IMG/VR virus record: IMGVR_UViG_3300033076_000135
Location: 1-31,611 of that record
Origin: a virus
Lineage: Duplodnaviria > Caudoviricetes
Direction: 5' to 3' (one strand)
Length of the DNA stretch: 31,611 nucleotides
In this document: positions 1 through 31,321 of the stretch, piece by piece
Numbering within the stretch: position 1 is the first letter of the stretch
Layout: each line of letters opens with the position of its first letter
Translations under genes and position numbers: made by a program
The notes under the pieces: model-generated
What the model saw: only the letters and a program-made list of their open reading frames with translations
Database searches by the model: none
What the model was told of the DNA's origin: nothing

Positions 1-621
1 CTTGACGACATGAAGCCGCAGACCAAGGACAAGATCACGCTGGCTGATCTGGACGTGGACATCTTCTACCAAATCGACCCAGCCAAGGCTGCCGAAATCA
101 TGACGCGCTGGCCCGGTGATGCGGTCGAACTTAAAGGCGAGGACGGCGTGCGCATCGGCAACGGGTACGTGACCCGTCAAGCCCGCGAGGCTGTCTACAA
201 CGCGATTGCCAAGTACGGCAGCGACACCGTTCACACTGAGCGTGTTGCGATTGCAGCAGAGGTGGTGAAGTCGCTTCAGGCAGACCTTGACGAGTCCGCT
301 GGTAAGGGCATGTTCTTCGTTCGCTCGGCCAACGTGCGCAACTTGGTGACCGACCCAGCGCTGGAACAGTCAATCAAGGAAGCGGCGAACCGAAACTTCC
401 AGATTGCGGCCAAGCAAAAAGAGGTGGAGTTGGCCCGCGCCGAAGCCGAACGCAAGCGTGTTGAGGCACAAGGTGATGCCGATGCCATCCGCCTGCGTGC
501 TGCTGCCATCACCTCTCAGGGCGGTCGTGAATATGTCGAACTGAAGGCCATTGAGAAGTGGGATGGGAAACTGCCAACCACAATGCCGGGCCAAGTCACG
601 CCTTTTGTTCACATCAAATAA
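1..621 (+). CDS. SPFH/band-7 (prohibitin-like) protein, 5'-truncated
   Basis: The frame is open from base 1. It has an SPFH-like core (TKDKITLADLDVDIFYQIDP...AREAVYNAIAKY...VRNL), an Ala/Glu/Arg coiled coil (AEAERKRVEAQGDADAIR) and the typical C-terminal 'AIEKWDGKLP'. Confidence 0.85.
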   Translation, partial: LDDMKPQTKDKITLADLDVDIFYQIDPAKAAEIMTRWPGDAVELKGEDGVRIGNGYVTRQAREAVYNAIAKYGSDTVHTERVAIAAEVVKSLQADLDESAGKGMFFVRSANVRNLVTDPALEQSIKEAANRNFQIAAKQKEVELARAEAERKRVEAQGDADAIRLRAAAITSQGGREYVELKAIEKWDGKLPTTMPGQVTPFVHIK

Positions 622-630
622 GGAGTCATC

Positions 631-1140
631 ATGAGCGAAAACAAAGTCACCCTCGAAGGCATCAAGGCCAAAATCAAGGCCAACTGCTTCCTCGTGTTGC
701 CAGACGGCCGCACCACCATCTGCATGCTGTCTATGGAGAATGGCTACACCATCAAGGGCATCTCGGCCTGCGTGGATGAAGCCAACTTCGACATCGAGCT
801 TGGCCGCAAATACGCATACGAGGACGCCATCCGTCAGATCTGGCCTCTGGAGGGCTATCTGCTGGCCCAGCGTATGTATGAGAACCCACCCAAGACGCTG
901 ACAGTCCCAAGCGTTTTGGAGGAAGCAAAAAAGCAACTCGATGCCGAGATTGAGAAAGCCAAGGCCGCCCAGTTCAAGCTGTCTCCGCAGCGTGTGCAGG
1001 CCATGAAAAAGGCTGGTGTGTGGCAGGTGAAGGACAAGCGAGACAAGATGATCGCCGCTTATGCCAAGCATGATGCGCCATGGGGCTTTAAGAAGGATGG
1101 CACACCCAAGAAACAACCCGGAAGGAAAACCGCAAAATGA
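631..1140 (+). CDS. acb4: N4 gp49/Sf6 gp66-family (Acb4-like anti-CBASS sponge) protein with a C-terminal scaffold-like motif and basic tail
   Basis: Residues 1-83 match the recalled family pattern (TTICMLSMENGYTIKGISACVDEANFDIELGRKYAYEDAIRQIWPLEGYLL). An AAGGAG RBS lies just upstream. The C-terminal extension is described in findings. Confidence 0.75.
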   Translation: MSENKVTLEGIKAKIKANCFLVLPDGRTTICMLSMENGYTIKGISACVDEANFDIELGRKYAYEDAIRQIWPLEGYLLAQRMYENPPKTLTVPSVLEEAKKQLDAEIEKAKAAQFKLSPQRVQAMKKAGVWQVKDKRDKMIAAYAKHDAPWGFKKDGTPKKQPGRKTAK

Positions 1141-1643
1141 AACGCTACATCGGAGTCAAAGAGATCAATGCCACATCCATGAGTCGTGCGGCATACAACC
1201 TGTTCCGTGGCTGGGAACTGCCCAAAGACGAGAATGGTGAGGACGAGGGCTACCTCGTTGAATATCTTGATGGTGGTCAGGCCAACACAGCAACCTATAA
1301 AGGCTATGTTTCGTGGTCGCCAAAGGATGTATTTGATCGGGCCTACAAAGCCACGGAAGGCATGACCTTTGGTCTGGCCCTTGAAGCCCTCAAGCGTGGC
1401 TCCAAGGTGGCACGCAAGGGCTGGAACGGCAAGGGTATGTGGCTATCTTTGTCCGGGCCACACCAACGCATTCCGTATCAAGCCTTCTGGTCTGAGAACA
1501 ATGCAGCCTACGCCAAAGAGCAGGGTGGTTATGCGACCGTGCTGCCCAGCATTACCATGAAAACTGCGACCGGAGAAATCCTGATGGGCTGGCTTGCCAG
1601 CCAAACCGACATGCTGGCCGAAGACTGGGAGATTGCTCAATGA
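1137..1643 (+). CDS. tad2: DUF2829 (Tad2-like anti-Thoeris sponge) domain fused to an N-terminal YIG-K...SWSPK domain
   Basis: The C-terminal half MTFGLALEALKRGSKVARKGWNGKGMWL...GWLASQTDMLAEDWEI is the DUF2829 signature. ATGA overlap with the upstream gene. Confidence 0.8.
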   Translation: MKRYIGVKEINATSMSRAAYNLFRGWELPKDENGEDEGYLVEYLDGGQANTATYKGYVSWSPKDVFDRAYKATEGMTFGLALEALKRGSKVARKGWNGKGMWLSLSGPHQRIPYQAFWSENNAAYAKEQGGYATVLPSITMKTATGEILMGWLASQTDMLAEDWEIAQ

Positions 1644-2285: not shown

Positions 2286-3668
2286 TCATCTAGGAATCAT
2301 CTCGACCGGGGGCATGTTTGTCCCCGGCTCGGGTATGCGAGGCTTGAGCGGGGAGAACTTGTCCCGCAGGTAGTTGGTCAACGGGGATGCCGTCGCCAAG
2401 AACGCACCAAGAGCCTTGGCCTTCATGTTGGGAGCCATCATCAAGGCACCACCAGCGCTTCCAGCGCCAGAAACCATTGCCCCTGTGGTGTCACCCTGCG
2501 CGTAGCGCTGCTGGGCCTGCTGGGCGTTCTCAGTGGCCGCAAGACCCCCAAGTCCGCCGGTAACCGTCGGAGAGCGCAAGACAGCGCCAGCGCCGCGCTG
2601 TACAGCACCGGCAGCACGAGAAAGAGCGCCCGGGCCTTGAGGGGCTGCCGCTTGAATTGGGGTATTCGGGATGGGTTGGCTCTTGGGAAGCTGGGCCAAG
2701 GCCGCAGGCTTACCCCCCGGCACGTCGGGGCTGGCCGGAATGGCTGGCTGCTGGACGTAGGACGCCCGGGGGCCGCTGCCGACCGAAGGTTCGGGGGTCA
2801 TGATGCCGCCGTACCTTGGGTTTTCAGCATACCCACCACCCATTTGCTGGATCTGGTTCATGGCCTGACGGCGCTTTTCCAGCAGATCCCAGACTTCTCC
2901 CTCACCCTTGCCCGTGCCCAAAGCCTTTGCGGCCTCGATTTCAGGCAAACCATGAACTGTTGCGTAGTTCTGGACGGCGCTGCCCGGGCCTGTGGCTTTG
3001 GCATACGGCAAAGCACCAGTTGTTGCAGGCCCGCCAACGGGGCCAGCAGGGCCTCCGGCAGCCGGAGCCATGGTAGGGGTGCTAGGGGCCATTGAAGGGG
3101 TCGCTGATGGCGCTGTGGGGGCCTGCACAGCCCCTGAACGCAGCAAAGCGGGTAGTTCTCGCACGGCTTGGGCGGTTTGAGCCACGTTTTGGCCGAAATT
3201 CAGGGTCTTCGCAGCGGCAGCGCCAGCGCCAGCACCCAGAACATCCAGTGCTACACGGGCTTTTTGGGCTTGCAGGTCTGGACTTGCGGCCGAGCCGGGC
3301 GCAGAAGCAGCAGCCGCTGCCGGAGCGGGTGTTTCGGAAACGTCAGGAATGCCATCTTCCCCGGCCAGACGGGTGATTTCCGAGCGCAGGGAACTCACGT
3401 CGCGGCTCAAGCGCTCGTAGGCCTTCACGTTGGCTTCGGTTGGGGTGCTGTCAGCGATGTTCTCGGCGATCTTCATCTGCTTCACAGCGTTGGCGTACTC
3501 GGTTTGCAAGATCAGGAGACGATCTGCCTGCTTGCCTTCGCCAGAGGACTTCCCGGCATACGCCTGAGCAGCAAACGCCTGAATTTCATCCTCAGAAGCA
3601 CCTTCAGGGCCTGCGATCTTGAGGATCGAGCCGTCCGGCGCTTGGACTTTGTAGATCACTTCAGCCAT
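2286..3668 (-). CDS. putative ejection/internal virion protein (460 aa)
   Basis: Start moved to ATG 3668, just after the upstream stop at 3670. Ala/Gly/Pro-rich, with Gly/Ala hydrophobic C-terminal helices. Last gene of the virion operon. Confidence 0.6.
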   Translation of the reverse strand: MAEVIYKVQAPDGSILKIAGPEGASEDEIQAFAAQAYAGKSSGEGKQADRLLILQTEYANAVKQMKIAENIADSTPTEANVKAYERLSRDVSSLRSEITRLAGEDGIPDVSETPAPAAAAASAPGSAASPDLQAQKARVALDVLGAGAGAAAAKTLNFGQNVAQTAQAVRELPALLRSGAVQAPTAPSATPSMAPSTPTMAPAAGGPAGPVGGPATTGALPYAKATGPGSAVQNYATVHGLPEIEAAKALGTGKGEGEVWDLLEKRRQAMNQIQQMGGGYAENPRYGGIMTPEPSVGSGPRASYVQQPAIPASPDVPGGKPAALAQLPKSQPIPNTPIQAAAPQGPGALSRAAGAVQRGAGAVLRSPTVTGGLGGLAATENAQQAQQRYAQGDTTGAMVSGAGSAGGALMMAPNMKAKALGAFLATASPLTNYLRDKFSPLKPRIPEPGTNMPPVEMIPR

Positions 3669-26729: not shown

Positions 26730-27800
26730 TCAGCACTTCACCGATCCACCACGCTTCTTGGCGGGTGCAACCGTCACAGACTTTTCAGTCTCGGTCACAC
26801 TGCCTTTTGGCGCAGAGCCAAAGCCCAACAGATCCTTCGCGCCACGGAAAATCTTCCCGGGGATGTCACGGATCGACTGAGCCATGTCCAAGTCTTCCTT
26901 GGACGGGCCAATGCTCTCTTTGTAAGCCTTGTCCATCGCCTTGCGGGCAGCAGGACTGTCGAAGTTGATGTCGCCACCCTTGGCATACTTCAGGTTCGTG
27001 TTGGCTTTCGCCTGACGAACGGCAGTAGCGTTCTCGGCCTTGAAGTTAGCTTGGAGCTTCTTCTCGGCTGGGGTTACGCTGCCACCTTTTTTGAAGGTGC
27101 CGGATTGACGGTCATTCGAAACAGGCTTGGAGGCAGGCTTCTTCGGATAGGCCACGGCGCGGCCGCTGTCGTTAACAGCACCCCCCGTGGCGTAGGCTTT
27201 TTTTGCGGAGCCGCCTTTCTTGTAGCCGCCCGCATTGCCCAGCTTCACGTCGCCAGTTGGTGCAGAGTTGGTGTCCACCTTCGCTGTGTCCATCTTGGTG
27301 TTGCGGTATGCGCCACCTTGACCTTCAGTGTTGATGATCCCGCTCTTGGCAATAGCGCCGCCCTTTTTGAAGCCGCCTTGGCCGTTCACCACGCCACCAG
27401 TGGCGTAATTACCGGGCTTTGCCGACTTAGCAACACCACCAGTGGCAAGGCCTTTGTGGCCTTTGCTGGCAGGCTTGGACTCGTGAGACTTCAGTTCTTT
27501 TTCAAGACCCGAGATCTTCTTCATCTCAGCTTTGTGTGTTGCTTTGGTTTCGCCGCCTTCCTTCATCATCGGACGACCAGCCATCGCAGCGCGACGGGCG
27601 GCCATTGTCGGTTTTGCAGGACGAGCAGCAGCGGGCATGCCGCCGCGAGGAGCGCCAATAGCGCCAGTGGGTCGTGTCGACGGGATGGCGGCCATCAAGG
27701 CACCACCGTCAGCCTTCTTCACTGCACCACCTTTTTTGAGCTTCAGTTCAACTGAAGGCTCGGTGGTCTGCATTTTGACCATAGGTTTGAATTGACCCAT
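26730..27800 (-). CDS. highly basic internal head protein with 11 [FYMLK]-[AK]-x-GG motifs
   Basis: K/A/G-rich, 356 aa. Motifs in order: LKKGG, KADGG, MKEGG, LATGG, YATGG, FKKGG, YKKGG, YATGG, FKKGG, YAKGG, KKRGG. AAGGAG RBS. Confidence 0.7.
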   Translation of the reverse strand: MGQFKPMVKMQTTEPSVELKLKKGGAVKKADGGALMAAIPSTRPTGAIGAPRGGMPAAARPAKPTMAARRAAMAGRPMMKEGGETKATHKAEMKKISGLEKELKSHESKPASKGHKGLATGGVAKSAKPGNYATGGVVNGQGGFKKGGAIAKSGIINTEGQGGAYRNTKMDTAKVDTNSAPTGDVKLGNAGGYKKGGSAKKAYATGGAVNDSGRAVAYPKKPASKPVSNDRQSGTFKKGGSVTPAEKKLQANFKAENATAVRQAKANTNLKYAKGGDINFDSPAARKAMDKAYKESIGPSKEDLDMAQSIRDIPGKIFRGAKDLLGFGSAPKGSVTETEKSVTVAPAKKRGGSVKC

Positions 27801-28247: not shown

Positions 28248-29165
28248 TTAGACGCCAGCAGTACCGTACATCGCACGCCAGTCGGTGAAGCCAACGTCGT
28301 AACGCTCGGTCGCCTTGTAACGCATGGTGTCGGTTTCGAAGTCACCTTCCATGGTCTTCTCAAGACGGCGGCGCATCATCAGCTTCATGCCTTCGGGAGC
28401 GTCGGTCTGCACCCACCATGCGGTGGAACTGGTCAGACGCGACATCACAGCGGCACCCTCGTCCAGCAAGCCGATGGACTTGATGGGGTTGATGTCGTTG
28501 TTGGCGTTGCCAGAACGCAGAACGCTCTTCAGCAGCACTTCGGCTTGGAAGACGTTGCCGGGGGCGACCACCAGTTGGCGGGGCACCAGACGGATCTTCT
28601 TGCCGTTGTTGTCCACTGCCTGACGGATTTGGATCAGCATCTGCTCCAGAGAAGTCTGGGACAGGTTGGCTGCCGTAGCCAGCAGGTTCGAGGCAGTGCC
28701 GTTCACGATGGGGTGAGCGGAACTGTTCAGGGCAACACCGTCGCCACCAGCGTACTGGCCGCCAGTGAAGGCGTTGTTCAGCACGTTTGCAGCCAGAGTT
28801 TCCTTGGTCTCGATCAGGGACTGAGCGAGGTGACGGGCATACACCTGACCGATACGGATGTGATCGCCGTCTTCCACCAGCACTTTGGTCAGCGCGAAGG
28901 CCAGACCATACACGTTGTAAACGTAGCGCTTGAGGAACAGCACACCACCTTGTTGGTACGTCACCGGAGTGCCGTCAGGCATCTGGGGAGCAGCACCGAA
29001 ACCGTACAGGACGGGTTCTTCATGGTAGTTGCGTGGGATGCCTTCTTGTTCGCGGAAAACACGCGACCATTCATCGGCACGTTGATCGTACACGCCGTCG
29101 AAGCACTCGTTCAGAATGGGTTCGACGATGGAACGAAAGTCGGTACTGCGCATTGGAGCGGCCAT
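28248..29165 (-). CDS. major capsid protein (Mu gpT-like, HK97 fold)
   Basis: 305 aa with 'GGDGVALNSSAHP', 'PRQLVVAP' and 'GDFETDTMRYKATERYDVGFTDWRAMYG'. Strong RBS, biased codon use, downstream of the scaffold. Confidence 0.85.
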   Translation of the reverse strand: MAAPMRSTDFRSIVEPILNECFDGVYDQRADEWSRVFREQEGIPRNYHEEPVLYGFGAAPQMPDGTPVTYQQGGVLFLKRYVYNVYGLAFALTKVLVEDGDHIRIGQVYARHLAQSLIETKETLAANVLNNAFTGGQYAGGDGVALNSSAHPIVNGTASNLLATAANLSQTSLEQMLIQIRQAVDNNGKKIRLVPRQLVVAPGNVFQAEVLLKSVLRSGNANNDINPIKSIGLLDEGAAVMSRLTSSTAWWVQTDAPEGMKLMMRRRLEKTMEGDFETDTMRYKATERYDVGFTDWRAMYGTAGV

Positions 29166-30331: not shown

Positions 30332-31321
30332 TTAGCGTTGAGCTTGACGCGCTTCTTGCGCATAGCGTTTGATCATCTTGTTGCGTTTTTCTGGGTCATC
30401 CCAGAAACCAGCATCCTTCATCGCTCGAACTTGTTCGGGCGACAAAGTGAAGGAGTTTTTACCTCCTGCTCTTGATGCTGATTCACGTCCAGATGAAGTC
30501 ACGATACCTCTCGGCTTACTCCGTCGACTTGGATTCTCGTCGGTGTTTGCATTGTATAGATGGGGGACGTACTTTTGCAAGCGGTTGTCAAACTCTTCCC
30601 AGTAATCGGGGCGAGTGGCATCCCAGCCCTCGGCCGTCAGGGTTTCGTCGATCTGCTTGGCAATACGGCTCTCCATGTCACTGCCGTTTGGCTTGTACCA
30701 TGGGTTGCGATCCATCCAGTCGGCTGCCAGACGTTGCAGGCGCGGGTCTGGCAGGTTCTGCTCCTGCTTGGGCTGAACGGCATTCTTCTTCAGGTTGCGC
30801 AGAGCTTCGGCCTGTTGGCGGGCCTCCATCCACATCTCCTGAGCCTTCGCCATGGCTTGGCCGTCACGAGACTCAGCGGCCTCGGACAGTTTCATCTTGG
30901 CGTAGTTGATGCGCAGTTCAGAGTCCTCGATGGCCTTGTCGATGCGGGCAAGGTCAGCAGAGTGCGTCTTGCGCTCGACAACGGACAGTCGTTGCAGGAG
31001 TTCTTGATTCTGGCGTTCAAGCAATTGCAGCTTGATCTCTTTTTCGGCATTGGTCTGCTTGACCAACTGCTTCTTGGCACGGCGGCGCTCACGCTTGGCG
31101 GCACGGAGGGCGTCCGAGTCGTCAGGGTGGTCGTCATCGCCTGCGTCACCGCCTGCGGCCATCTCTGGCTCGTCGCGGTCATCATCCTCGTCGTCGTGCT
31201 GGCCTTTGGCAGCAGCGTCAGCGTCAGGGCTGGGGATGCTTTCTGGAAGGTCGACAACGGCCGAGCCGTCCATCTCTTCCTTGACGTCAATCACGTCGTC
31301 TTGTGCGTTTTCTGTACTCAT
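30332..31321 (-). CDS. putative capsid scaffolding protein (329 aa)
   Basis: Acidic disordered N-terminus, long coiled coil, 'WMDRNPWY', and a short helical C-terminal motif (TLSPEQVRAMKDAG...YA). Upstream of the capsid genes. Confidence 0.7.
   Translation of the reverse strand: MSTENAQDDVIDVKEEMDGSAVVDLPESIPSPDADAAAKGQHDDEDDDRDEPEMAAGGDAGDDDHPDDSDALRAAKRERRRAKKQLVKQTNAEKEIKLQLLERQNQELLQRLSVVERKTHSADLARIDKAIEDSELRINYAKMKLSEAAESRDGQAMAKAQEMWMEARQQAEALRNLKKNAVQPKQEQNLPDPRLQRLAADWMDRNPWYKPNGSDMESRIAKQIDETLTAEGWDATRPDYWEEFDNRLQKYVPHLYNANTDENPSRRSKPRGIVTSSGRESASRAGGKNSFTLSPEQVRAMKDAGFWDDPEKRNKMIKRYAQEARQAQR

What the first reader, a model, noticed from the sequence alone, without database searches (positions are those of the whole stretch)
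973..1065. Acb4-like anti-CBASS sponge carries a copy of the phage's own scaffold C-terminal motif: a candidate capsid-addressed anti-defence protein
Seen: residues 115-145 of the Acb4-like ORF (FKLSPQRVQAMKKAGVWQVKDKRDKMIAAYA) align without gaps to residues 291-321 of the scaffold at 30359-30451 (FTLSPEQVRAMKDAGFWDDPEKRNKMIKRYA). By hand count 18 of 31 positions are identical, although the genes are 29 kb apart on opposite strands. The motif is joined to the sponge domain by a helical linker (VLEEAKKQLDAEIEKAKAA). Established: the C-terminal helical element of scaffolds such as P22 gp8 binds coat protein; gp49/gp66-family Acb4 sequesters CBASS cyclic nucleotides; CBASS escape mutations have been mapped to capsid and scaffold genes. 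Inference: the phage has grafted its coat-binding tag onto an immune-signal sponge. This could load the sponge into virions for delivery at the next infection, or concentrate it at procapsid assembly sites where CBASS may be triggered. I know of no description of such a fusion.
Basis: partly seen in the sequence, partly recalled or inferred. Interest (0 to 1): 0.92.

Follow-up and report, generated by a model that had tools for sequence, protein, structure and literature searches.

The report
Scaffold-derived tag on phage immune sponges
A water phage's alarm-signal 'sponge' protein carries a conserved copy of the end-piece of its probable head-scaffold protein, and related phages put the same piece on two sponge families and many small basic proteins, most likely as an address label for the young capsid, though binding and packaging are untested.

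Summary
Confirmed: ORF 631-1140 is an Acb4-family (PF13876) domain followed by a helix, a 31-residue copy of the C-terminal motif of ORF 30332-31321 (18/31 identical, E 4e-9) and a basic tail. It is not a one-off. Searches gave 62 distinct non-scaffold copies: 19 on Acb4, 1 on Tad2, 42 on small strand-helix proteins, nearly all before a basic tail. Copies keep the scaffold's invariant residues and show purifying selection; a second copy is accessory (1 of 17 near-complete relatives). Corrections: the tag is not a fresh graft of the phage's own scaffold (synonymous sites saturated, no co-variation in 4 genomes, one old capture not rejected), and it is not sponge-specific. 'Scaffold' rests on position and composition; coat binding is unshown (complex prediction unavailable). 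Best reading (0.42): a procapsid-addressing tag, working like T4's capsid-targeting sequence or SaPI CpmB, that loads small basic proteins and sponges into heads. Main rival (0.22): a decoy against head-sensing defences, since these phages also carry genes copying a capsid-protein fragment. This scan noted scaffold-derived tags on other DNA before, none on a sponge.

The parts
631..1140 (+). 169-aa modular gene: Acb4-family sponge domain, helix, scaffold-end motif, basic tail
   Evidence: ribosome-binding AGGAG at 621-625
649..873 (+). Acb4 / PF13876 domain (residues 7-81)
   Evidence: Pfam E 3.6e-22; profile match to 9E4W E 1.4e-4; Foldseek E 1.7e-5
907..966 (+). linker helix (residues 93-112); shared with tag-less Acb4 relatives, not part of the tag
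973..1065 (+). 31-aa copy of the scaffold C-terminal motif (residues 115-145); two predicted helices 119-127 and 132-145; net charge +6
   Evidence: (pLDDT 50-59)
1075..1137 (+). basic KKDGTP...PGR tail, common to many small proteins of these phages; AT-hook-like by recalled resemblance only
1137..1643 (+). Tad2-like sponge gene overlapping the stop of the tagged gene; carries no tag here
   Evidence: Pfam PF11195 E 3e-25; same order in G002 and G003
28248..29165 (-). major capsid protein, presumed partner of the motif
   Evidence: PF25209 E 1.5e-13; 89% to an annotated major capsid protein, 75% to Caulobacter phage RW, 42% to pelagiphage HTVC023P
30332..31321 (-). 329-aa probable head scaffold: acidic N-terminus, helical middle, basic C-terminal motif; scaffold role inferred
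   Evidence: gene order terminase, 828-aa gene, GroES, this gene, two genes, capsid in phage RW; charge profile; weak Atlas lead to PF09306, 14% of a cluster at score 0.87; no Pfam, annotated PHROG or PDB match
30359..30451 (-). donor motif, scaffold residues 291-321; the most conserved block of the family

Best explanation
The 31-residue two-helix motif is the coat-binding end of this phage family's head scaffold (inferred). It was captured long ago, probably once, into a family of small early proteins built as oligomerising N-domain, linker, basic tail, and has since been shuffled by recombination onto different N-domains, among them the Acb4 and Tad2 sponges (shuffling shown, single origin not rejected). 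On a tetrameric sponge it would be displayed four times, compete weakly with scaffold for sites on the inner procapsid wall and be co-assembled into the prohead; size and the basic, probably DNA-binding tail would retain it after the scaffold leaves (inferred, by analogy with P22 scaffold fusions). The cargo then either sits at assembling heads, where late-acting signalling defences are triggered, or travels in the virion into the next cell, like T4 internal proteins. I put procapsid association of some kind at about 0.5 and delivery into the next cell at about 0.3.
For: Motif is the most conserved block at the very end of the family's scaffold-position gene. 62 distinct non-scaffold copies on Acb4 (19), Tad2 (1) and small proteins (42); an address label is expected on unrelated cargoes. 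Copies keep the residues invariant in scaffolds: 6.55 of 7 scaffold-defined core positions in 11 copies found without a word index, against 5.35-5.88 in simulated neutral drift passing the same score filter (P <= 0.008). Two close pairs give 10 synonymous and 5 non-synonymous changes inside the motif (binomial p 3e-4). Carriers lie in phages of the same virion family (9 of 12 records examined share virion genes with the window, the other 3 are fragments of 5-17 kb), and 0 of 21 genomes chosen for plain Acb4 have the motif anywhere. Motif presence needs 8 changes on the Acb4 tree, at least 4 forced by well-supported branches; a soil contig carries 906-1121 with 2 differences behind a different upstream sequence. 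Precedents read as passages: T4 capsid-targeting sequence and injected IPI (PMC9958956); CpmB and 80alpha scaffold share a C-terminal coat-binding motif (PMC5644958); P22 scaffold ends load and retain fused cargo (PMC9962691).
Against: No family, structure or experiment identifies the donor as a scaffold. The tag does not track the cognate scaffold: the share of 264 scaffold motifs at least as close as the phage's own is 0.22 (window), 0.98, 0.86 and 0.64; capsid proteins of most loci are 83-97% identical, so this weakens but does not refute. In Acb4 copies the second half drifts: the scaffold's DDP is mostly replaced by basic residues and the conserved Tyr is kept in only 38% (net charge +4.7 against +2.7), and one small-protein lineage has lost the second helix. 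The dN/dS pairs are non-sponge carriers, and selection is no stronger on the motif than on the tail. The motif is internal here but terminal in scaffolds. Most copies are not on sponges. The same phage family also recycles a 40-residue piece of the capsid protein in small genes, which a loading tag does not explain.
Confidence: 0.42

Rival explanations
1. Decoy or cloak against host sensors of head proteins. The motif mimics the scaffold end that a CBASS or TIR-type sensor recognises, or covers the scaffold site on free capsid protein, so it titrates the sensor early in infection; on Acb4 or Tad2 it also brings the sponge to the signal-making enzyme. The protein need not be packaged.
For: The same phage family has a second class of ~60-aa early genes copying capsid residues ~165-204 (16 loci; profile E down to 1e-7, reverse profile hits full capsid proteins at E 6e-9; 3 of 5 records checked hold both fragment gene and full capsid gene). 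Carriers sit in a variable early slot beside Tad2. A scaffold domain alone triggers one CBASS and an escape mutation maps to its extreme C-terminus (bioRxiv 2023.05.21.541620, passages); Thoeris senses capsid protein (PMC12578639, listing and passages). Lack of co-variation with the own scaffold fits a host target.
Against: Host and its defence systems are unknown. A faithful mimic could trigger rather than block the sensor. A search for capsid-fragment decoys gave 2 reviews, seen only as listings. The basic tail is not explained.
Confidence: 0.22
2. The motif is a small nucleic-acid-binding or oligomerising element that works with the basic tail (a nucleoid-type protein architecture) and has nothing to do with the capsid wall; in the large protein it may do the same job. 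The sponge would be tethered to phage DNA or RNA.
For: It always precedes a basic tail and becomes more basic on Acb4. Tag-less versions of the same small proteins and of Acb4 with only the basic tail are common (23 of 26). One carrier has a sub-threshold AT-hook match (E 0.033). The donor's scaffold role is not proven.
Against: The invariant positions are hydrophobic or small (Leu, Val, Ala, Gly, Trp), and are the same as in the scaffolds. No nucleic-acid-binding family matches.
Confidence: 0.18
3. Assembly modulator: mini-scaffolds made early that hold back premature capsid polymerisation, or poison head assembly of co-infecting relatives, as SaPI CpmB competes with the helper scaffold; the sponge domain is a passenger of the same cassette.
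For: 42 of 62 copies are on small proteins with no recognisable cargo. The CpmB precedent. Capsid proteins of relatives are close enough for cross-binding. The tag often fits other phages' scaffolds better than the own.
Against: Self-toxicity for the carrier's own heads would be expected. Repeated coupling to two sponge families is unexplained.
Confidence: 0.1
4. Neutral hitch-hiker: a scaffold fragment that entered a tolerant linker by illegitimate recombination and is decaying.
For: Accessory (1 of 17 near-complete genomes); variable second half and one truncated lineage; the linker of these proteins accepts many unrelated sequences.
Against: Core retention above the drift control, synonymous excess in close pairs, saturated synonymous distance to scaffolds with 41-58% identity kept in two of four genomes and 32-39% in the others.
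Confidence: 0.08

Closest known systems
Acb4 of Bacillus phage SPO1 (PF13876, PDB 9E4W; bioRxiv 10.1101/2024.12.30.630793, passages and section 8 read)
   Same: N-terminal domain is a Pfam member with the same fold; the paper notes that several homologs carry unexplained extensions.
   Different: About 85 extra residues with a scaffold-end motif and basic tail. Of 10 ligand-contact residues 1 is identical (F62), about 5 conservative, and E49, Y57, T70, K81 differ (T, V, Y, P here), as they do in many tag-less relatives; ligand unknown.
Phage T4 internal proteins IPI-IPIII and their capsid-targeting sequence (review PMC9958956, passages read)
   Same: A short shared peptide on unrelated small non-essential proteins; IPI is an anti-defence protein packed in the head and injected with the DNA. 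This is what the system most likely works like.
   Different: The T4 signal is ~10 residues, N-terminal, removed by the prohead protease and, per the review, not shared with the other core proteins. Here it is 31 residues, internal, homologous to the scaffold end, and no protease gene was recognised in the window.
SaPI1 CpmB and phage 80alpha scaffold (PMC5644958, passages read)
   Same: A small separate protein with an N-terminal dimer domain carries a homologue of the scaffold's C-terminal coat-binding motif and uses the same site.
   Different: CpmB is satellite-encoded, C-terminal, redirects capsid size and has no cargo domain or basic tail; no sequence relation to the RIIK motif.
Engineered P22 scaffold fusions (review PMC9962691, passages read)
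   Same: Cargo fused in front of a scaffold's C-terminal helix-turn-helix is co-assembled into procapsids, and cationic or oligomeric fusions are retained.
   Different: Artificial, and a different scaffold family; here the arrangement is natural and unproven.
Sponge-sponge fusions Acb4-Tad2 and Acb4-Sequestin (bioRxiv 10.1101/2025.07.12.664507 and 10.64898/2026.06.04.730250, passages read)
   Same: Acb4 and Tad2 are often fused to other domains and cluster in variable early hot spots beside SSB genes.
   Different: Known partners are further sponges found through Pfam; this partner has no Pfam model and derives from a head-assembly gene.

Membership tests
Acb4 (PF13876) | Pfam PF13876 domain above the curated cut-off | tested here: met
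   79.1 bits against cut-off 27, residues 7-81
Acb4 (PF13876) | Fold of SPO1 Acb4 (three strands plus long helix) | tested here: met
   AlphaFold2 model, domain pLDDT 73-88; all listed matches at E <= 1e-4 are 9E4W chains
Acb4 (PF13876) | Ligand-contact residues of the 3'3'-cGAMP pocket | tested here: inconclusive
   K36>R, F48>Y, F62=F, N63>D, I66>L, V56>C kept or conservative; E49>T, Y57>V, T70>Y, K81>P differ
Acb4 (PF13876) | Tetramer that binds cyclic dinucleotides and rescues phage from CBASS | not testable with these tools
   Needs binding and plaque assays; no oligomer model was available
Head scaffolding proteins (for ORF 30332-31321) | Gene between portal/terminase module and major capsid gene | tested here: met
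   Three genes upstream of the capsid gene in the window, G001, G003 and phage RW
Head scaffolding proteins (for ORF 30332-31321) | Elongated helical protein with acidic body and short basic conserved C-terminal element | tested here: inconclusive
   Charge profile and conservation fit; PDB profile hits are generic coiled coils; no structure model could be made
Head scaffolding proteins (for ORF 30332-31321) | Sequence match to an annotated scaffold family | tested here: not met
   0 of 107 members match a scaffold family in Pfam; 55 of 107 match only phrog_28737, unknown function; Atlas lead PF09306 is below its reliable range
Head scaffolding proteins (for ORF 30332-31321) | C-terminus binds coat protein; protein present in proheads, absent from virions | not testable with these tools
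T4 capsid-targeting sequence / internal proteins | Short N-terminal signal removed by the prohead protease | tested here: not met
   Motif is internal, 31 aa; no protease among the window's Pfam and PHROG hits (window is a partial genome)
T4 capsid-targeting sequence / internal proteins | Same peptide on unrelated small accessory proteins, including anti-defence cargo | tested here: met
   Acb4, Tad2 and at least three kinds of small N-domain
T4 capsid-targeting sequence / internal proteins | Packaged in the head and injected | not testable with these tools
   Needs virion proteomics
SaPI CpmB-type scaffold mimics | Separate small protein with a homologue of the scaffold C-terminal motif | tested here: met
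SaPI CpmB-type scaffold mimics | Encoded by a satellite, motif at the C-terminus, redirects capsid size | tested here: not met
   Encoded by full phages that carry their own scaffold; motif followed by 20 or more residues; size redirection untested

The most novel reading that the evidence does not exclude
A large family of aquatic HTVC023P-like podophages uses a natural, exchangeable copy of its scaffold's coat-binding end to load Acb4 and Tad2 immune-signal sponges, and a set of unnamed small proteins that may be further anti-defence factors, into the head, so that sponges enter the cell with the genome; together with the capsid-fragment genes this would be a general strategy of recycling head-protein pieces for counter-defence.
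Probability: 0.3. Interest if true: 0.9.

Novelty: new variant of a known kind. Interest (0 to 1): 0.72.

Why it matters
Signal sponges are described as proteins made during infection; I found no report of one addressed to the capsid (paper searches; find searches in two sponge papers). A natural scaffold-derived tag on two unrelated sponge families would show that phages place counter-defence at the head or inside the virion, would explain one of the unexplained Acb4 extensions, would mark 40-odd unnamed small proteins as candidate virion cargo or anti-defence factors, and would give a cargo-loading peptide for an abundant aquatic phage group that can be tested in a cultured relative (Caulobacter phage RW).

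Tried and rejected
Complex prediction of capsid protein with the motif was not available, and no structure model of the scaffold could be obtained, so binding has no computational verdict. PDB sequence searches with the capsid, scaffold and motif profiles found nothing relevant. The protein Atlas gave no usable hit for a small carrier. A search for proteins shorter than 180 aa with the scaffold's own end returned 26 hits that were scaffold fragments or probable chimeras, not carriers. No locus was found for P0067. The degenerate DNA scan gave 19 stretches and no new carrier sequence. My first pick of motif coordinates took the wrong domain line and was redone. My first drift control used core positions chosen from the tails themselves and a filter laxer than the real searches; I replaced it by a scaffold-defined core and the no-word-index subset. 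Several independent captures from scaffolds: suggested by 8 of 27 tails lying nearer a scaffold than another tail, but the AU test does not reject one clade (p 0.70, 31 columns, low power). G004 (92% by CheckV) lacks scaffold and capsid genes, but the contig ends before the head operon, so it is no counter-example. The second match in G020 looks like a duplicated contig end and was not counted. No RNA holder was listed. No sigma-70 promoter-like site in 1-2600. Host unknown: 38 MAG contigs with this capsid carry mixed labels, many Burkholderiales or betaproteobacterial, and may be mis-binned. No supplements were read; the Acb4 homolog table of the bioRxiv paper might list tailed homologs.

Full report
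Observation. The window is a 31.6 kb fragment of a podovirus of the HTVC023P/CRP-901 type: its capsid protein is 89% identical to a spring-water metagenomic phage, 75% to Caulobacter phage RW and about 42% to HTVC023P and CRP-901. ORF 631-1140 (+) and ORF 30332-31321 (-) exist as described. Residues 115-145 of the first match residues 291-321 of the second with 18 of 31 identities and no gap (BLASTP E 4e-9). A profile from 24 scaffold ends picks out only this ORF among the non-scaffold ORFs of 25,765 searched (E 4.4e-9, next 0.71). At DNA level the two copies are 61% identical with pS 0.82, so this is an old homology, not a recent duplication. A contig from a different study matches 714-1283 without a difference, so the fusion is not an assembly artefact.

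Anatomy. Residues 7-81 are PF13876; the model of this part matches SPO1 Acb4. Pocket residues are partly conserved and follow the pattern of many tag-less relatives, so a sponge function is likely and the ligand open. Then come a helix (93-112), the motif, predicted as two short helices at low confidence, and a basic tail beginning APWG-KKDGTP. The next gene is Tad2-like and overlaps the stop codon; the previous one is an SPFH-domain gene.

The donor. ORF 30332-31321 lies between GroES and the capsid operon in the window, in G001 and G003 and in phage RW. It has an acidic N-terminus, a helical middle and a basic end, and the motif is its most conserved block. That is the usual build of a head scaffold, but 0 of 107 family members match an annotated scaffold model and the Atlas lead to PF09306 is weak. 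'Scaffold' and 'coat-binding end' are inferences from position and from P22 and 80alpha (passages).

Recurrence. A first search with the tail gave 26 proteins of 39 candidates; 3 of 26 carry the motif, one of them without an Acb4 domain, and 23 are Acb4-type proteins with helix and basic tail only. A motif profile against 1.84 billion representatives gave 505 hits, 150 listed: 106 full-length scaffold-type proteins, 32 short scaffold-like ends, 11 small proteins with an internal motif and one methyltransferase that may be a chimera. A profile of those small proteins gave 166 hits of 1,270 candidates, 120 listed, including 13 more PF13876 proteins and one Tad2 fusion. Pooling proteins and loci, and leaving out hits with fewer than 20 residues after the motif, there are 62 distinct non-scaffold motif sequences: 19 on Acb4, 1 on Tad2, 42 on small proteins, mostly a strand-helix N-domain, with several kinds of basic tail. 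Both lists were cut by the tools, so these are lower bounds. The same small proteins and Acb4 also occur with the basic tail and no motif: the motif is an optional insert.

Distribution. Carriers lie in the early arm near an SSB-like and an exonuclease-like gene (labels recalled; no Pfam match), facing the end of the virion operon. G002 and G003 have nearly identical neighbours and different Acb4 tails, so the slot is hypervariable. Of 35 genomes chosen by their scaffold, 1 has a true second copy (1 of 17 near-complete). None of 21 genomes chosen for plain Acb4 has the motif at all, and 4 of 18 chosen for the basic tail have it once, in scaffold-sized frames. So the tag is accessory and was seen only in the family whose scaffold has it. 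On the Acb4 tree it needs 8 changes (at least 4 forced; 83 columns, bootstrap not settled), which shows module exchange.

Selection. After an 80% redundancy filter the copies keep L3, V8, A10, K12, G15, W17 at 92-100% and R23 at 86%. Because detection favours conserved positions I ran a control: the 11 copies found without a word index keep 6.55 of 7 scaffold-defined core residues, whereas neutrally mutated scaffold motifs passing the same 49-bit filter keep 5.35-5.88 (P <= 0.008). Two independent close pairs, both non-sponge carriers, show 10 synonymous and 5 non-synonymous changes where 78% non-synonymous is expected (p 3e-4); the tail is at least as constrained as the motif. An Acb4 and a small carrier with related tags have pS 0.71 and pN 0.20. 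Against this, the second half is freer: in Acb4 copies the scaffold's DDP is mostly basic and the Tyr is kept in 38%.

Origin. In the four genomes with both genes, the tag is 18, 10, 13 and 12 of 31 identical to the cognate scaffold, and 22%, 98%, 86% and 64% of 264 scaffold motifs are at least as close. One clade for all copies is not rejected (AU p 0.70, low power). The direction scaffold to accessory gene is inferred from the motif's presence at the scaffold end in distant phages. 'The phage's own tag' should therefore read 'the family's tag, moved as a cassette'.

An unexpected parallel. G005 has, 1.7 kb downstream of its carrier, a 60-aa gene resembling capsid residues ~165-204. It recurs in 16 loci at 53-100% identity, the homology holds in both directions, and 3 of 5 records checked also hold the full capsid gene. 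This family has thus recycled pieces of two head proteins into small early genes, which raises the decoy reading.

Mechanism. Shown: a selected, mobile homologue of the scaffold end on sponges and small basic proteins. Inferred: that it binds the inner capsid wall, is co-assembled into proheads, is retained by size and the basic tail, and possibly ejected. This parallels T4 internal proteins with their capsid-targeting sequence, CpmB and engineered P22 fusions, without being a member of any of them. A virion-borne CBASS inhibitor is known (ICP3 Gp15, abstract only), but it is an ejection protein that blocks the effector. I give the addressing model 0.42, decoy or cloak 0.22, nucleic-acid or oligomer element 0.18, assembly modulator 0.10 and relic 0.08.

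Novelty. My paper searches and term searches in two sponge papers showed no scaffold-derived tag on a sponge; the library lacks most subscription papers and I read no supplements. The Acb4 paper mentions unexplained extensions. Earlier notes of this scan describe scaffold-derived tags on accessory proteins of other phages and sponge genes inside head operons, but none with both; they are unchecked and not counted as support. Verdict: real, conserved, undescribed arrangement; new variant of a known kind; interest 0.72.

Noticed in passing
L270 7108-7287 (-) in G005; L427-L442 around 3001-3177: Family of ~60-aa stand-alone early genes homologous to residues ~165-204 of the major capsid protein, in 16 loci of the same phage family; candidate capsid mimics. 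Worth its own study.
   Followed up: partly
protein P0253 (no locus): Tad2-like domain fused to the scaffold-end motif and a different basic tail: a second sponge family with the tag; one sequence only.
   Followed up: partly
proteins P0079, P0148, P0181, P0205-P0228; loci L217-L241: Widespread unnamed family of small proteins with an N-terminal strand-helix and a basic tail, with or without the motif; no Pfam, PHROG or Atlas match. They share slot and tails with Acb4 and Tad2 and may be unrecognised anti-defence or nucleoid-type proteins.
   Followed up: partly
proteins P0152 and P0051 (no locus): A methyltransferase-like protein and a protein with acidic repeats end in a scaffold-type C-terminus; real fusions or chimeric assemblies, not resolved.
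   Followed up: no
window 1-1643 (+): SPFH/Band 7 gene, tagged Acb4 and Tad2-like gene in a row: a small anti-signalling cluster at the end of the early arm.
   Followed up: partly
window about 30530-30660 (-), scaffold residues ~220-260: The motif profile weakly matches a second, internal conserved stretch of the scaffold family (EGWDP...YW) in many loci; possibly an old internal repeat, possibly chance.
   Followed up: no
window 26730-27800 (-): 356-aa basic, Gly/Lys/Ala-rich protein with repeated short GG-containing units downstream of the capsid gene, conserved in G003; looks like an internal head or DNA-condensing protein; no family match.
   Followed up: no
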